NCBI RefSeq assembly: GCF_044324785.1
Contig: NZ_CP172127.1
DNA from: Escherichia coli
GTDB taxonomy: Bacteria; Pseudomonadota; Gammaproteobacteria; Enterobacterales; Enterobacteriaceae
Direction: 5' to 3' (one strand)
DNA length: 64,000 nucleotides
Below the pieces are notes generated by a model, which was not told where the DNA came from, ran no database searches, and worked only from the letters and a program-made list of their open reading frames with translations. Made by a program: the position numbers and the translations under genes. This document shows positions 4,389 through 9,964 of the stretch, piece by piece; the first letter of the stretch is position 1; each line of letters opens with the position of its first letter.

Positions 4389-6098
4389 TTACTGCACCGG
4401 CTCCGTCGACGTAACTTCACCACTGGAAACTACGCCCGCATTCATGGTTTGAGTCACTTGCTGCTTTGCGGCGTTCACGGCATGGAGTTGCCCGCTAACC
4501 GTAGGTTTCAGCGGGATATTGGCCTGAATATCGCCGCTGGCGGTAAGCTGAATATTGCCGTCGCCAGTCAACGGTAATTCAGGCCATCCCCACTGTTGCA
4601 AAATATTCACCGGCACACCGCGTCCATTCAGGCTGATATGGGTCTGACGTTGTGGCGTTTGTGAAACACTGGCGGTGGCTTCCAGAATGCCTTTTTCAGT
4701 AAATGCACTCAGTTCGCTGATATTCACCGTGCTGCTGTTGGCGGTTAGCGCCAGCGATGGGCGACGAATATCAACACGATTAAACGTCGCGGCGGCGGCA
4801 TTCAGATTCGCCGAGCCACTCCAGACGCCCCATTTATGATCGGTAACCAGCGTCAGATTGGCACCGTAACCATCGAGCGCGGTGAGCTGCCACGGGAAGT
4901 CAGGGTCGATATCAATGATCAGATTGCGGCTGGCGCTAAATCTCTTCAGTTGCAGGCTGTTTAACCAACCGGGTGTCGTTTCCATCCACAACTGTTGCCA
5001 GTTTTTTGGCAAGGTATATTCCAGTCCGGCAATTGCCGCATCATCAAGGATCAACGTTTTCCCGTTGCGCAGCCAGTTCCCGGACGTTCTGACCATGCCC
5101 CCTTCCCAGCGGCTGGTGAACTGGCGCAGCGCTACGCCCTGCGGGGAAAATTCCGCGTTTATAATCGGGTCAAATAAATGCAGCGAACCATAAATGAACT
5201 CGCTGGCGTTCATCGACAGTTTGCCTTCCTGTGTCTGCCAGTCATCTTTACTGAAGGTCATGTTGCGCAAGCTGAGATCGAGGTCGGTCACCGCCCAGTC
5301 CGGACCTTGCAAACGAGCATCGATGACTTCCAGGCGACCAATCTGCAACGACGGGACAGAGCGTAATGGCGCAAAGAAGTCGGTTAGCGATTTTTCGCTT
5401 TGTAGACGGATATCCGCCAGCCGCAGATTTTCCACTTGCCAGCTGCCGTCAGCGTTACGCTGCGCGTTTCCGGTTAATGTCCCGCGGGCGATGTCGGCAC
5501 CCAGGTTAGTCAGCGTAACGCGATCGTTATCAATACTGCCTTCAATCAGTACATTGGTGGCAGGAACATCATTGAGCGAAAGCGATCCGGCACTAAACTG
5601 AATCTGCGCCTTCGTACCCAGCACTTTACCGGCTTCAGGTGACCACGGAACCACGCCGCCATTTACTCGCTGCGCGCTTAGTTTCCATTCGCTATTCGGG
5701 CTATTAAACGCCATATCACGCAGTTGCAGACGATCGGCTTTGAACGGTAGCGGCGCGGTCTGGTCGGTGAGATTCAGCGTCCCGTTTTCCAGCAGGATGG
5801 TATCGACATGGCGTGGTTCGGTCAGTTGCCGACTGCTTAGCGCAATGTCGACACTTTTTGCCACCAGGGTCGCGGGCTGGCCATCACGACCAAACGTGAC
5901 GTTCTCCAGCACGATATGAGATGGCGCGGAAAAACGGTGATCCATCGCCCCGAAAGCCAGATGATAGTCGCTATTCTCGGAAACCCATGCGCTGATATGT
6001 TCTGCTCCCCAGCGGGTTTGCAGAAGAAAATAGAGGCCAGCGATCACCACTAACAGAGCGATGAGAATGTAGAGAAGCAGCTTCCCAATAAATTTCAT
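4389..6098 (-). CDS. yicH: AsmA-family outer-membrane biogenesis protein YicH
   Basis: 569-aa translation from MKFIGKLLLYILIALLVV with N-terminal signal anchor; position next to xanP as in E. coli. Confidence 0.85.
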   Translation of the reverse strand: MKFIGKLLLYILIALLVVIAGLYFLLQTRWGAEHISAWVSENSDYHLAFGAMDHRFSAPSHIVLENVTFGRDGQPATLVAKSVDIALSSRQLTEPRHVDTILLENGTLNLTDQTAPLPFKADRLQLRDMAFNSPNSEWKLSAQRVNGGVVPWSPEAGKVLGTKAQIQFSAGSLSLNDVPATNVLIEGSIDNDRVTLTNLGADIARGTLTGNAQRNADGSWQVENLRLADIRLQSEKSLTDFFAPLRSVPSLQIGRLEVIDARLQGPDWAVTDLDLSLRNMTFSKDDWQTQEGKLSMNASEFIYGSLHLFDPIINAEFSPQGVALRQFTSRWEGGMVRTSGNWLRNGKTLILDDAAIAGLEYTLPKNWQQLWMETTPGWLNSLQLKRFSASRNLIIDIDPDFPWQLTALDGYGANLTLVTDHKWGVWSGSANLNAAAATFNRVDIRRPSLALTANSSTVNISELSAFTEKGILEATASVSQTPQRQTHISLNGRGVPVNILQQWGWPELPLTGDGNIQLTASGDIQANIPLKPTVSGQLHAVNAAKQQVTQTMNAGVVSSGEVTSTEPVQ

Positions 6099-6218: not shown

Positions 6219-7610
6219 TTACTGTTTTTCTGGTGGGAAAATCAGATTCAGCACGATGGCAGTAATACCGCCCGCGGCGATCCCGGAGGAGAGCAGGTTT
6301 TTCAGCCATTCAGGGGCAAACTGCAAAATCAGCGGCTGCTGAGAAACGCCCAGACCGACCGCTAGCGACAGCGCGATAATCAGAATCGCCCGACGGTTCA
6401 GCGGCTCACGAGAAACGATACGCACACCGGAGGCGGCGATGGTGCCAAACATTACAAGCGTTGCGCCGCCCAGAACCGGTTCTGGAATGTGTTGTACAAA
6501 ACCGCTCACTGCCGGGAACAGACCCAGCACGATCAACATCAGCGCGACGACAAAACCGACATAGCGGCTGGCAACACCGGTCAACTGGATCACACCGTTG
6601 TTCTGCCCGAAGCAGGAGTTCGGGAAAGTGTTAAACACCGCCGAAACAAACGAGTTCAGGCCGTTTGCCAGCACGCCGCCTTTCAGGCGTTTCATGTACA
6701 GCGGACCGGACACTGGCTGTTCGGAAACGTCAGAGGTCGCCGTGATATCGCCAATGGTTTCCAGCGAAGTGATCATAAAGACCAGCATCAGCGGCAGCAG
6801 CAGACTCCATTCAATGCCAAGACCGTAATAGAGCGGCGTTGGCACCATAATCAGTTCTTGCGTCATCGGTTCGTTGCTTTCTGGCAACATGCCCATAAAC
6901 CACGCCAGCGCATATCCGGCCGCCATCGCAATCACCAGTGAGGCCACGCGCAAATATGGGTTACGCTGACGGTTAAGCAGGATAATTAAGGCTAAGACCA
7001 CGCCCGCCAGCAGCAGATTTTTCGGTGCGCCGAAGGTGTTATCGCTCATGGCTGCGTAACCGCCGCCAATGGACGTTAACCCAACCTGAATTAGCGACAG
7101 GCCGATAATCATCACCACAACGCCAGAAACTAGCGGCGTAATAATGCGGCGCGCCAGATGCAGAACGCGGGAGATCACCATCTCAGTGCAACTTGCCAGC
7201 ATCAACGTGCCGAACAAAGCCGCCATCATGGTAGGAACATCAGCACCACCGGTCTTCAGCGCTGTGCCGCCCATAATCAGCGGGGCAACAAAGTTGAAGC
7301 TGGTGCCCTGAATAGACAACAGCCCGGAGCCAACCGGACCCCAGGCCTTAATTTGAATAATCGATGCCACACCGGAGGCAAACAGCGACATACTAATAAT
7401 GTGTTGCGTGTCTTGTGCCGGTAAACCCAGCGCCTGGCAGATTAATAGCGCTGGCGTGATCACCGCAACGAACATCGCCAGCAAATGCTGACAGGCGGCA
7501 AACAGGGTTTGAGGAAGCGGCGGACGATCTTCAAGACGGTAAATCAGTTCGCTGTTTTGAGTCTGCGCAACCGGTTGCGCATTTTCTGACTCGAGGGTGG
7601 AAACAGACAT
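6219..7610 (-). CDS. xanP: xanthine permease XanP (NCS2 family)
   Basis: 463-aa multi-TM translation [34 protein letters not shown] recognised as XanP. Confidence 0.9.
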
Positions 7611-7889
7611 CGAAAACAATCCCGTGGTAGCAAAGCGGGCATTTTAGCTGACCGAAAGAGAAAAGCAAACGTTTGCCACATCCTCATCTAAATATTTAAA
7701 TGAGATAAATGTACTTTTTTATATAACTTTTAGTTGTTTTCTGCTTAAAATCCATGCCATTTTTCTATTTTCAGCTAAGAATTCGAACCAGGAAAGCATG
7801 ACTCGATACTCGTCATATTTCGCCTTACTGCAAATGCGCGATGAAGTATGACGAGTATGAAAGAGTGATGCGGACACAAAGGAGTAACT

Positions 7890-9095
7890 ATGTTTCATCT
7901 CGATACTTTAGCAACGCTTGTTGCCGCAACGCTGACGTTGCTGCTCGGGCGCAAGTTGGTCCATTCCGTCTCCTTTTTGAAGAAATACACCATACCGGAA
8001 CCTGTTGCGGGTGGTTTATTAGTGGCGCTGGCGCTACTGGTACTGAAAAAAAGCATGGGCTGGGAAGTCAACTTTGATATGTCCCTGCGCGATCCGTTAA
8101 TGCTGGCTTTCTTCGCCACCATTGGTTTGAACGCCAACCTTGCCAGTCTGCGTGCCGGTGGGCGTGTGGTTGGCATCTTCTTGATTGTGGTTGTTGGTCT
8201 GTTGGTGATGCAAAATGCCATTGGCATTGGTATGGCTAGCCTGTTAGGGCTTGATCCGCTGATGGGGCTGTTGGCCGGTTCTATTACGCTTTCCGGCGGT
8301 CACGGTACGGGCGCTGCGTGGAGTAAATTGTTCATTGAACGCTATGGCTTCACCAATGCGACGGAAGTGGCGATGGCCTGTGCGACGTTTGGTCTGGTGC
8401 TGGGCGGCTTGATTGGCGGTCCGGTAGCGCGCTATCTGGTGAAACACTCCACCACGCCGAACGGTATTCCGGATGACCAGGAAGTCCCGACGGCGTTCGA
8501 AAAGCCGGATGTGGGCCGCATGATCACCTCGCTGGTGCTGATTGAAACTATCGCGCTGATTGCTATCTGCCTGACGGTGGGGAAAATTGTTGCGCAACTT
8601 TTGGCTGGCACTGCTTTTGAACTGCCGACCTTCGTCTGTGTACTGTTTGTTGGCGTGATTCTGAGCAACGGTCTGTCAATGATGGGCTTTTACCGCGTCT
8701 TTGAGCGTGCGGTATCCGTGCTGGGTAACGTAAGCCTGTCGTTGTTCCTGGCGATGGCGCTGATGGGGCTGAAACTATGGGAGCTGGCTTCGCTGGCGCT
8801 GCCGATGCTGGCGATTCTGGTGGTACAGACCATCTTCATGGCGTTGTATGCCATCTTCGTTACCTGGCGCATGATGGGCAAAAACTACGATGCGGCGGTG
8901 CTGGCTGCGGGTCATTGTGGTTTTGGCCTCGGTGCAACGCCAACGGCAATCGCCAACATGCAGGCGATCACTGAACGTTTTGGCCCGTCGCACATGGCCT
9001 TCCTGGTAGTGCCGATGGTCGGTGCGTTCTTTATTGATATCGTTAACGCGCTGGTGATTAAGCTGTATTTAATGTTGCCGATTTTTGCGGGCTAA
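7890..9095 (+). CDS. gltS: sodium/glutamate symporter GltS
   Basis: 401-aa translation MFHLDTLATLVAATLTLLLGRKLV recognised as GltS; divergent from xanP. Confidence 0.9.
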   Translation: MFHLDTLATLVAATLTLLLGRKLVHSVSFLKKYTIPEPVAGGLLVALALLVLKKSMGWEVNFDMSLRDPLMLAFFATIGLNANLASLRAGGRVVGIFLIVVVGLLVMQNAIGIGMASLLGLDPLMGLLAGSITLSGGHGTGAAWSKLFIERYGFTNATEVAMACATFGLVLGGLIGGPVARYLVKHSTTPNGIPDDQEVPTAFEKPDVGRMITSLVLIETIALIAICLTVGKIVAQLLAGTAFELPTFVCVLFVGVILSNGLSMMGFYRVFERAVSVLGNVSLSLFLAMALMGLKLWELASLALPMLAILVVQTIFMALYAIFVTWRMMGKNYDAAVLAAGHCGFGLGATPTAIANMQAITERFGPSHMAFLVVPMVGAFFIDIVNALVIKLYLMLPIFAG

Positions 9096-9097
9096 AA

Positions 9098-9964
9098 ATG
9101 AAAAAGCGTCGGAAGGAACCGGAAACGCTACGTGAACACTGTCGCCATATTTTTGGTGATGAGCCGCCAGTGCTCTGTGTATGGGAAACGGAATTTGATT
9201 ACGCAGATGCCGAACTCAAGGCGCTGGCGGCTAAAGAGTGGCAGCAGATCAGCGAATGGGATTTGAGTGCTTACTATGTACTCAATCTCGTTTATAACGA
9301 ACCGATGCAACCAGAGTTGTTTCGCTATCTGTTTCCGCTCTGCCTGGCGCAATGGCATGAAACCGTTTTAGCTGGCGGTTATGGTGATCACTTCGAAGAA
9401 TCATTAATGAAGGCATTGCGTCGGCCCTATCTCTGGCAGGAGATGATGAATGCTTCCCAACGCCAGCAGGTACGGCAATTTTTACTGGAAACCGCGTTGC
9501 AGCGTATGGATAACGAGCGCGGTTTCAATAATGTTCTTTGCTGGCTGGCGGTGTTCAATACTCTGGGCGGGGCCGCGCCATTAATTCGTCCCCTTTGGTC
9601 ACGCTGGTGGGCACTGGATACGCCCGGCAAAGCGGTGTGTGCTATTCAATATGCTGCGCATCTTATTTATCCCATAGAAGCCAATCCGTTATGGTCGCAA
9701 GAATGGTTAGGCTGGGGGCATCCATTAGGCCATAAAGATGGCTGGTCCTCTGAGAATCGCGCTTTTCTTCGCCAGATGTTAACACCTGAAATGATTGTGG
9801 CTGGCGTACAGGCAGCGGCTGAAATTCTGCGTGGTGAACCGGAAGGCACAATGGCGGCGCGAATTGCGCAGGATGCGTATGAGGCAATGGATATCATCAC
9901 TATCCAGATTGAAGATTTACTGCGTGACTTGTCTTGCGATGAGTCAGGTCATGCGTTGGAGTAA
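9098..9964 (+). CDS. hypothetical protein (Trp-rich, soluble), not part of the K-12 gltS-recG junction as I recall it
   Basis: 288-aa ORF starting 3 nt after gltS stop; 3' end overlaps recG 3' end by 16 nt; no recognisable motif. Confidence 0.45.
   Translation: MKKRRKEPETLREHCRHIFGDEPPVLCVWETEFDYADAELKALAAKEWQQISEWDLSAYYVLNLVYNEPMQPELFRYLFPLCLAQWHETVLAGGYGDHFEESLMKALRRPYLWQEMMNASQRQQVRQFLLETALQRMDNERGFNNVLCWLAVFNTLGGAAPLIRPLWSRWWALDTPGKAVCAIQYAAHLIYPIEANPLWSQEWLGWGHPLGHKDGWSSENRAFLRQMLTPEMIVAGVQAAAEILRGEPEGTMAARIAQDAYEAMDIITIQIEDLLRDLSCDESGHALE

What the first reader, a model, noticed from the sequence alone, without database searches (positions are those of the whole stretch)
7803..7860. 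11-bp inverted repeat in the xanP-gltS divergent intergenic region
ATACTCGTCAT (7806-7816) and ATGACGAGTAT (7848-7858) are perfect inverted repeats with a 31-nt spacer, ending ~30 nt upstream of the gltS start. This could be a leader hairpin or a regulator binding site.
Basis: seen in the sequence. Interest (0 to 1): 0.2.

Follow-up and report, generated by a model that had tools for sequence, protein, structure and literature searches.

The report
Escherichia-only hairpin in gltS leader
The inverted repeat is real and forms the core of a long RNA stem-loop in the untranslated leader of the E. coli glutamate-transporter gene gltS; it is a 53-base addition found only in the genus Escherichia, kept base-paired by selection, with no sign that it is a switch, so it is a modest, fairly ordinary finding.

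Summary
The repeat is at the stated place and is slightly better than described. It is 12 bp perfect (7806-7817 / 7847-7858, 29-nt spacer), extends to 17 pairs with G.U, and has 8 further outer pairs. Together these form a 76-nt hairpin (7796-7871; -32 to -35 kcal/mol, z = -4.9).

It lies in the xanP-gltS spacer of E. coli. It is downstream of a -10/-35 block conserved in about 70 enterobacterial species, so it is inferred (not shown) to be in the gltS 5' UTR.

Only Escherichia has it. Leaders elsewhere are 50-54 nt shorter, and removing exactly 7806-7858 restores colinearity with the closest Citrobacter leaders, which carry a short hairpin there.

Across Escherichia the stems are conserved (10/50 variable columns) and the loop is not (16/19; p = 1.5e-6). 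Wobble pairs favour the gltS-sense RNA.

Deleting the unit in silico leaves ribosome-site accessibility unchanged. Breaking one arm lowers it slightly.

It has no Rfam match, is not a terminator, is single-copy and has no conserved uORF. CsrA and RNase III datasets give no support.

Most likely it is a self-contained leader stem-loop, possibly affecting mRNA stability. A DNA operator and a functionless relic remain possible.

E. coli carries two haplotypes about 20% apart here. Low interest.

The parts
7806..7817 (+). Left arm, perfect 12-mer ATACTCGTCATA
7847..7858 (+). Right arm, perfect 12-mer TATGACGAGTAT
   Evidence: Invariant in 6 of 7 independently retrieved Escherichia lineages; E. whittamii has A7857G, which gives a U.G pair.
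7806..7858 (+). The 53-nt self-complementary unit: a 17-pair core stem (7806-7822 with 7842-7858) and a 19-nt loop (7823-7841). It is the Escherichia-specific extra sequence.
   Evidence: Fold. Leader length difference of 50-54 nt. The best 53-nt deletion against Citrobacter NCU1 and Awk 4 starts at 7806-7810. Absent from 75 non-Escherichia loci.
7796..7871 (+). Whole leader hairpin. Its outer stem is GCAU 7796-7799 with AUGC 7868-7871, and ACUC 7801-7804 with GAGU 7863-7866. The outer stem corresponds to a short hairpin at the same place in Citrobacter sp. NCU1 and Awk 4.
   Evidence: After in-silico removal of 7806-7858 the outer stem closes on a 5-nt loop. The Citrobacter NCU1 hairpin is (L012).
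7746..7751 (+). Inferred -10 hexamer TAAAAT of the gltS promoter. The -35-position block ATAACT is at 7723-7728 (17-bp spacer). The inferred start is near 7758, giving a leader of about 132 nt.
   Evidence: Conserved in position in about 70 species: 88-98 nt before the ATG outside Escherichia, 143-145 nt in Escherichia. This is inference only. The consensus promoter scan called nothing here.
7789..7795 (+). CAGGAAA, a GGA motif conserved in nearly all genera, immediately 5' of the hairpin base
7879..7892 (+). Shine-Dalgarno AAGGAG (7879-7884) and the gltS start codon (7890-7892). Both lie outside the hairpin, starting 8 nt 3' of its base.
7712..7834 (.). Segment in which the two E. coli haplotypes differ at 24 of 123 positions. 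It covers the promoter spacer, the 5' leader, the left arm and the loop.

Best explanation
The repeat is the core of a 76-nt stem-loop of about 25 base pairs in the 5' untranslated leader of the gltS mRNA.

Origin: other Enterobacteriaceae have a short hairpin between a conserved GGA motif and the Shine-Dalgarno sequence. In the ancestor of Escherichia, a 53-nt self-complementary sequence (7806-7858) was added at the tip of that hairpin.

How it works: because the addition pairs with itself, it stacks on the old stem. The base of the hairpin, the GGA motif and the ribosome-binding site therefore keep the same arrangement as before. Selection then keeps the two arms complementary, because a freed arm can mispair with the rest of the leader. 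The loop drifts.

The helix is not a switch on the ribosome-binding site. If it has an active role, it is most likely on mRNA lifetime, either as an obstacle to 5'-end-dependent RNase E or as an entry site for a double-strand RNase.

Shown here: the repeat itself, the fold, its restriction to the genus, the 53-nt length difference, the contrast in conservation between stem and loop, and the strand bias.

Inferred: that it is transcribed, that it arose as one insertion, and every functional statement.
For: - Fold: -35 kcal/mol, z = -4.9. The same architecture appears in all 10 Escherichia variants, at -26.6 to -36.9 kcal/mol.
- Transcription (inferred): a -10 hexamer with a conserved block 17 bp upstream sits 88-98 nt before the ATG in non-Escherichia species and 143-145 nt before it in Escherichia.
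- Distribution: both arms are present only in the 5 Escherichia loci out of 80.
- Insertion: deleting 53 nt starting at 7806-7810 gives the best alignment to the closest outgroup leaders. The remaining outer stem matches a hairpin in Citrobacter NCU1.
- Constraint: 10 of 50 stem columns vary against 16 of 19 loop columns, Fisher p = 1.5e-6. Mean pairwise divergence is 5-12% in the stems, 41% in the loop and 24.7% at fourfold-degenerate sites of xanP and gltS (all-pairs means).
- Strand: non-Watson-Crick pair states are 6 G.U and 5 mismatches on the + strand, against 1 G.U and 10 mismatches on the - strand. The + strand RNA is 5-11 kcal/mol more stable in 8 of 10 variants.
- Ribosome-binding site: the predicted opening energy is 4.52 kcal/mol with the unit and 4.51 without it. 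Thirty shuffles of the left arm give 5.66 +/- 0.44.
- Retention: present in 5423 of 5426 complete E. coli genomes, one copy in all but one.
Against: - No experimental transcription start could be retrieved. The consensus promoter scan finds no sigma-70 site here.
- No pair shows a compensatory double change, because the 7 lineages are too close for covariation.
- The haplotype carried by about 77% of E. coli genomes has two stem mismatches (C.A at 7810/7854, G.G at 7818/7846) and no strand bias in stability.
- Conserved arms with a free spacer would also fit two DNA half-sites.
- The predicted effect of the intact unit on translation initiation is nil, so an active function is conjecture.
- gltS shows no CsrA CLIP peak and no csrA-dependent change. 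It is absent from the RNase III supplement that could be searched.
Confidence: 0.58

Rival explanations
1. Functionless relic. A palindromic insertion or template-switch product landed in a tolerant spot, the tip of a hairpin. It persists because it does no harm. Its arms stay alike through quasipalindrome correction during replication rather than through selection on RNA.
For: - Removing the unit changes nothing in the predicted leader fold or in ribosome-site accessibility.
- The majority E. coli haplotype tolerates two mismatches.
- Perfect inverted repeats are reported to be over-represented and conserved in Proteobacteria, and template switching is proposed to create and repair them (PMC5941160; PMC8794818).
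Against: - The stems change 2-5 times more slowly than fourfold-degenerate sites, while the loop changes at least as fast.
- The arm sequences themselves are conserved, not just their complementarity. No pair shows the simultaneous double change that arm-to-arm correction would produce.
- No E. coli genome has lost the unit: 5423 of 5426 carry it.
- No donor sequence for a template switch was found.
Confidence: 0.2
2. DNA-level operator. The two 12-mers are half-sites for a multimeric regulator that bridges about four helical turns, for example tetrameric PdeL or a LysR-type tetramer such as PtrR/YneJ. Binding between promoter and start codon would repress or tune gltS.
For: - ChIP-seq for PdeL and ChIP-exo for PtrR each report a site in the gltS/xanP spacer of K-12 (PMC8669472; PMC9068703).
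- PdeL acts as a tetramer.
- Arms are conserved, the spacer sequence is free, and the spacer length is nearly constant at 28-29 nt.
Against: - The published PtrR motif TTCACnAATnGAGAA does not resemble the arms, and the authors found no motif similarity at this site.
- The PdeL motif is given only in figures and peak coordinates were not retrievable.
- The spacer holds better operator-like palindromes, at 7683-7704 and 7665-7676.
- A 29-bp gap between half-sites is atypical.
- Substitutions in the arms are mostly ones that keep G.U pairing in the sense RNA, which has no meaning for duplex DNA.
- Pairing continues beyond the arms into an outer stem.
Confidence: 0.12
3. Active RNA-decay element. 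The helix of about 25 bp is a cleavage site for RNase III or another double-strand-specific factor, and that cleavage sets gltS mRNA lifetime in Escherichia.
For: - The helix reaches the two-turn length that RNase III needs (established knowledge of RNase III substrates).
- The stems are under constraint.
- The helix lies in the inferred leader without touching the ribosome-binding site.
Against: - gltS is absent from the supplementary tables of one RNase III cleavage study. The other study's tables are not held.
- The helix is interrupted by an internal loop and bulges. In the K-12 type it also has two mismatches.
- There is no direct evidence of any kind.
Confidence: 0.08
4. Chance repeat with no significance.
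For: About 0.3 perfect 12-bp inverted repeats are expected per 64 kb.
Against: - Extended pairing gives z = -4.9.
- The repeat is conserved across species whose neutral sites differ by about 25%.
- The loop has diverged while the stems have not.
Confidence: 0.02

Closest known systems
Stable 5'-UTR stem-loops that affect mRNA lifetime (such as the ompA 5' hairpin, or structures that hinder RNase E scanning)
   Same: A stable helix in the leader, upstream of and not overlapping the ribosome-binding site. Its stems are under purifying selection.
   Different: With the inferred start near 7758, the hairpin begins about 38 nt from the 5' end rather than at it. No half-life data exist for this element, and it is genus-specific.
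Conserved perfect short inverted repeats and quasipalindromes shaped by template switching (Lavi et al. 2018, PMC5941160; Monttinen and Loytynoja 2022, PMC8794818)
   Same: An intergenic perfect inverted repeat with conserved arms. Perfect and imperfect versions coexist as alleles. A multi-nucleotide cluster of changes lies next to an arm (7822-7828).
   Different: No donor template was identified. The spacer is not inverted between alleles (my comparison of the sequences). No simultaneous two-arm changes were seen.
RNase III-processed leader helices (rnc and pnp leaders)
   Same: The helix is about two turns long and lies in a 5' UTR.
   Different: No cleavage evidence was found. The helix is interrupted.
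Dispersed palindromic elements (REP/BIME, ERIC, MITEs)
   Same: A short self-complementary insertion in a transcribed intergenic region.
   Different: It is single-copy in 5423 E. coli genomes. In metagenomes it occurs only in the gltS leader. No target-site duplication is visible.
Translational repression hairpins and RNA thermometers
   Same: A hairpin close to the start of a transporter gene.
   Different: The Shine-Dalgarno and AUG are outside the helix, and predicted accessibility is the same with or without the unit.

Membership tests
Any curated Rfam family | A covariance-model match at or near the family's gathering score | tested here: not met
   The best overlap is a plant miRNA model at 16 bits against a gathering score of 245 (E = 1.2). 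Nothing credible was found in 7000-8600.
Intrinsic terminator or attenuator | A G+C-rich stem followed directly by a run of U | tested here: not met
   One search reports no terminator-like site at the repeat. The sequence 3' of the stem is GAAAGAGUG on the + strand, and there is no U run on the - strand.
Dispersed repeat (REP/BIME, ERIC, MITE) | Many copies per genome in different contexts | tested here: not met
   median one place per genome, at most two, in 5423 genomes at blastn sensitivity; of 35 metagenome contigs carrying both 10-mers, only the 4 gltS leaders share the spacing, loop or flanks.
Leader-peptide (uORF) control | An upstream ORF conserved in presence, frame and peptide | tested here: not met
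   The 17-codon uORF (ATG 7798 to TGA 7851) is lost in the K-12 type (ATA), frameshifted in E. albertii, truncated in E1V33 and L114, and fused to another frame in L008.
SD-sequestering hairpin or RNA thermometer | The Shine-Dalgarno or start codon is paired within the regulatory helix | tested here: not met
   The helix ends at 7871 and the SD is at 7879-7884. Opening energy is 4.52 against 4.51 kcal/mol with and without the unit.
CsrA-controlled leader | GGA motifs, one at the SD, together with CsrA binding or a csrA-dependent expression change | tested here: not met
   GGA motifs are present (7791-7793 and 7881-7883). However, the integrated CLIP, ribosome-profiling and RNA-seq table of PMC5694010 lists gltS as No/No/No/No and NS.
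RNase III substrate | About 20 bp or more of double-stranded RNA | tested here: met
   25 pairs in two stacked helices, interrupted by one internal loop and two single-base bulges.
RNase III substrate | rnc-dependent cleavage in vivo | tested here: inconclusive
   gltS is not in the supplements of PMC5371410. The supplements of PMC6212723 are not held. gltS is weakly expressed in the conditions, so absence is weak evidence.
Dimeric transcription-factor operator | Two conserved half-sites a few bp apart, plus evidence of binding at that position | tested here: inconclusive
   The half-sites are conserved but 29 bp apart. PdeL and PtrR ChIP peaks are assigned only to the whole spacer. The PtrR motif does not match.
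5'-terminal stabiliser hairpin (ompA type) | The stem-loop lies within a few nt of the 5' end of the transcript | not testable with these tools
   This needs the transcription start. With the start inferred (about 7758), the hairpin begins about 38 nt downstream, which would not meet the feature.
Template-switch-generated inverted repeat | One arm is a reverse-complement copy of pre-existing neighbouring sequence, created in one event | tested here: inconclusive
   The extra 53 nt map onto the repeat unit. However, both arms are absent from the outgroups and no donor was found. The placement of the indel is ambiguous by a few nt.

The most novel reading that the evidence does not exclude
The hairpin is a genus-specific cis-regulatory RNA that sets gltS mRNA fate through a double-strand RNase or an unknown binding partner. 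The two deeply diverged promoter and leader haplotypes in E. coli (perfect stem in about 23% of genomes, mismatched stem in about 77%) would then be maintained regulatory alleles that give lineages different glutamate-uptake capacity.
Probability: 0.1. Interest if true: 0.5.

Novelty: new member of a known kind. Interest (0 to 1): 0.22.

Why it matters
GltS is the sodium/glutamate symporter of E. coli, and little about its control could be found in the searchable literature.

The work here gives a concrete map of its leader: an inferred promoter, a conserved GGA motif, a hairpin and the ribosome-binding site. It shows that Escherichia carries an extra 53-nt helix there.

It also offers a clean natural example of how a leader hairpin can grow by an insertion at its tip, and then be held together by selection while its loop drifts.

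If the two haplotypes differ in gltS expression, that would be a simple and testable case of regulatory polymorphism within E. coli.

None of this changes current understanding, and no regulatory role is demonstrated.

Tried and rejected
- **Rfam scan of 7000-8600 at E <= 10:** nothing credible.
- **Terminator and promoter consensus scan:** no terminator at the repeat and no consensus promoter.
- **Dispersed repeat or mobile element:** rejected.
- **Conserved leader peptide:** rejected.
- **CsrA control**, suggested by the conserved GGA motif next to the SD: no support in PMC5694010.
- **RNase III:** gltS is not in the one dataset I could search. The other is not held.
- **PtrR motif:** does not match. 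PtrR peak coordinates are not in the held supplements.
- **PdeL motif:** available only in figures.
- **Transcription start data:** not obtainable from five sources.
- **Covariation:** no double changes in Escherichia. Only weak covariation in the short hairpin of other genera: 3 of 5 pairs show one double change each.
- **Spacer inversion between the two alleles:** not seen when the sequences are compared.
- **An error of mine:** I attached the wrong names to the alignment rows. Only the all-pairs means from that call are used, and repeats the analysis with correct labels.
- **A reading I withdrew:** after I took the window haplotype to be ancestral. One search shows that the outgroups share more states with the K-12 type at the sites that can be polarised, so I withdraw that claim.
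- **Ungapped sliding-deletion test:** uninformative because of small indels upstream (first part).

Full report
**Observation.** ATACTCGTCAT (7806-7816) and ATGACGAGTAT (7848-7858) are present and exactly complementary. The perfect repeat is one base longer on the inside: 12 bp, 7806-7817 with 7847-7858, with a 29-nt spacer. It extends to 16-17 positions if T.G is allowed. It is the only perfect 12-bp inverted repeat with a spacer of 60 nt or less in the window, but about 0.3 are expected by chance. The bare repeat is therefore only mildly unusual. The full structure is not. As RNA, the + strand of 7795-7895 folds at -35 kcal/mol against -20.5 +/- 3.0 for shuffles (z = -4.9, none of 200 as stable).

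**Context.** The window is E. coli. Identical sequence in RefSeq genomes is annotated with xanP on the minus strand (6219-7610) and gltS on the plus strand (7890-9095). The repeat ends 31 nt before the gltS ATG.

**Anatomy.** The predicted hairpin spans 7796-7871 and has three parts:
- an outer stem: GCAU with AUGC, and ACUC with GAGU;
- a 17-pair core (7806-7822 with 7842-7858);
- a 19-nt loop.

The Shine-Dalgarno AAGGAG (7879-7884) and the AUG are outside the helix.

**Is it transcribed?** I found no experimental start site, and the consensus scan calls no promoter. Comparative evidence is strong, however. In about 70 species a -10 hexamer (TAAAAT, TACACT or TACAAT), with a conserved block exactly 17 bp upstream, lies 88-98 nt before the gltS ATG. 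In every Escherichia it lies 143-145 nt before the ATG. In the window the -10 is at 7746-7751, which implies a start near 7758 and a leader of about 132 nt containing the repeat. This is inference.

**Distribution and origin.**
- Of 80 gltS loci from as many species, only the five Escherichia loci have the two arms.
- The Escherichia leader is 50-54 nt longer than the others, and the repeat unit 7806-7858 is 53 nt.
- Against the two outgroup leaders that align well (Citrobacter sp. NCU1 and Awk 4), the best 53-nt deletion starts at 7806-7810.
- What is left, GCAUGACUCG|GAAAGAGUGAUGC, closes into a small hairpin, like the one predicted at the same place in Citrobacter NCU1.
- Most other genera also have a short G+C-rich hairpin 8-12 nt 5' of the SD, though with weak covariation.

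The simplest reading is that a self-complementary 53-nt sequence was added at the tip of an older leader hairpin in the Escherichia ancestor. Other indel placements cannot be excluded.

The element is single-copy: one place per genome in 5423 of 5426 complete E. coli genomes, with a second weak place in one. In a metagenome scan for both arms, only the four gltS leaders share its spacing and flanks. It is therefore not a dispersed repeat.

**Constraint.** Seven independently retrieved Escherichia lineages were compared.
- 96% of stem cells are paired, but no pair has a double change.
- Variable columns: 10 of 50 in the stems against 16 of 19 in the loop (Fisher p = 1.5e-6).
- Mean pairwise divergence is 5.0% in the right arm, 12.3% in the left arm, 5.4% in the outer stem and 41% in the loop. 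Fourfold-degenerate sites of xanP and gltS stand at 24.7% (means only; the per-pair labels in that call are wrong).
- Non-Watson-Crick states are 6 G.U and 5 mismatches when read on the + strand, but 1 G.U and 10 mismatches on the - strand.
- The + strand RNA is 5-11 kcal/mol more stable in 8 of 10 variants.

The arms are under purifying selection, and the pattern leans towards pairing in the gltS-sense RNA.

**Mechanism.** Removing 7806-7858 in silico leaves the rest of the fold and the ribosome-site opening energy unchanged (4.52 against 4.51 kcal/mol). Shuffling the left arm raises it to 5.66 +/- 0.44. The intact unit is thus a self-contained module, and breaking it is predicted to be mildly harmful. 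That alone could explain why the arms are conserved. An added role in mRNA decay is possible but unsupported.

**Rivals.**
- No Rfam family matches.
- There is no terminator.
- There is no conserved uORF.
- The CsrA idea, raised by the conserved CAGGAAA motif beside the SD, is not supported by the CLIP and profiling table of PMC5694010.
- RNase III data give nothing.
- PdeL and PtrR ChIP peaks fall somewhere in this 279-bp spacer. The PtrR motif does not match and the PdeL motif was not retrievable. A DNA operator with half-sites 29 bp apart remains possible but unsupported.
- A harmless relic kept uniform by template switching (PMC5941160, PMC8794818) fits the nil predicted effect. It fits poorly with the slow stems and the absence of paired changes.

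**Haplotypes.** E. coli has two versions of 7712-7834 that differ at 24 of 123 positions. By comparison, xanP differs by 1.5% and gltS by 3.0%, 7611-7711 is identical, and 7835-7889 has one difference.
- About 23% of complete genomes carry the window type, with the perfect stem.
- About 77% carry the K-12 type, with C.A and G.G mismatches. That type gains two extra pairs at 7822/7842 and 7823/7841, and its loop is largely replaced.
- The K-12 type is shared with Escherichia sp. MOD1-EC7003. The window type resembles E. whittamii and E. albertii.
- The Citrobacter and Salmonella outgroups share more states with the K-12 type at the sites that can be polarised.

Which hairpin version is older is therefore unresolved.

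**Verdict.** The best reading is a lineage-specific structural stem-loop in the gltS leader. That is a new member of a very familiar kind, with no demonstrated regulatory role. Interest is low. The deep promoter and leader dimorphism is the more curious by-product.

Noticed in passing
window 7712-7834: E. coli has two deeply diverged haplotypes of the gltS promoter spacer, 5' leader, left arm and loop. They differ at 24 of 123 nt, while the flanking genes differ by 1.5-3%. They occur in about 23% and 77% of complete genomes. The K-12 type is shared with Escherichia sp. MOD1-EC7003 and is closer to the Citrobacter and Salmonella outgroups at polarisable sites. The window type resembles E. albertii and E. 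whittamii. This could be old introgression or a long-lived polymorphism; it is unexplained.
   Followed up: partly
window 9098-9964 (+): A 288-codon ORF starts 2 nt after the gltS stop and overlaps the end of recG. RefSeq annotates it as a hypothetical protein. It has no Pfam match. The segment of about 850 bp is present in 1917 of 5426 E. coli genomes and absent from others, including L001 and the K-12 type.
   Followed up: partly
window 7665-7676: A perfect palindrome GCAAACGTTTGC lies 55 nt upstream of the xanP start. From my own knowledge it resembles the PurR box core, which would fit a xanthine permease. It is nearly invariant across Escherichia, Citrobacter and Salmonella.
   Followed up: partly
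window 7683-7704: A 22-bp near-palindrome, CTCATCTAAATATTTAAATGAG, has a core TAATATTTAAA that is conserved in Citrobacter and Salmonella. It is a better operator candidate than the repeat for the PdeL and PtrR ChIP signals reported in this spacer.
   Followed up: no
L003 3298-4506 (about window 7884): Strain BH212 has an IS4-like (ISVsa5 family) element inserted at the gltS ribosome-binding site, and its gltS is annotated as frameshifted.
   Followed up: no
L021, L036, L037, L064 and others, about 60-80 nt upstream of gltS: Many non-Escherichia leaders carry a second small hairpin with a conserved CTCATGA(N)GAG core between the -10 and the GGA motif. In Yokenella and Trabulsiella the 5' end of the leader reads GGCTCCT, which is complementary to the SD region AGGAGC. 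Neither feature is present in E. coli.
   Followed up: no
L084/L093/L103, L086/L090/L101, L105 (metagenome contigs): Unrelated environmental contigs found by the arm search carry several nearby copies of ACTCGTCA/TGACGAGT in both orientations. These look like iteron or operator arrays of unknown elements, with no link to gltS.
   Followed up: no
window 29779-29859: Two nested perfect 11-bp inverted repeats: GTTGGTTCAGT with ACTGAACCAAC, and GTTGGTTCAAT with ATTGAACCAAC. They turned up in the window-wide repeat count. Others are at 5452-5521 and 62898-62923.
   Followed up: no
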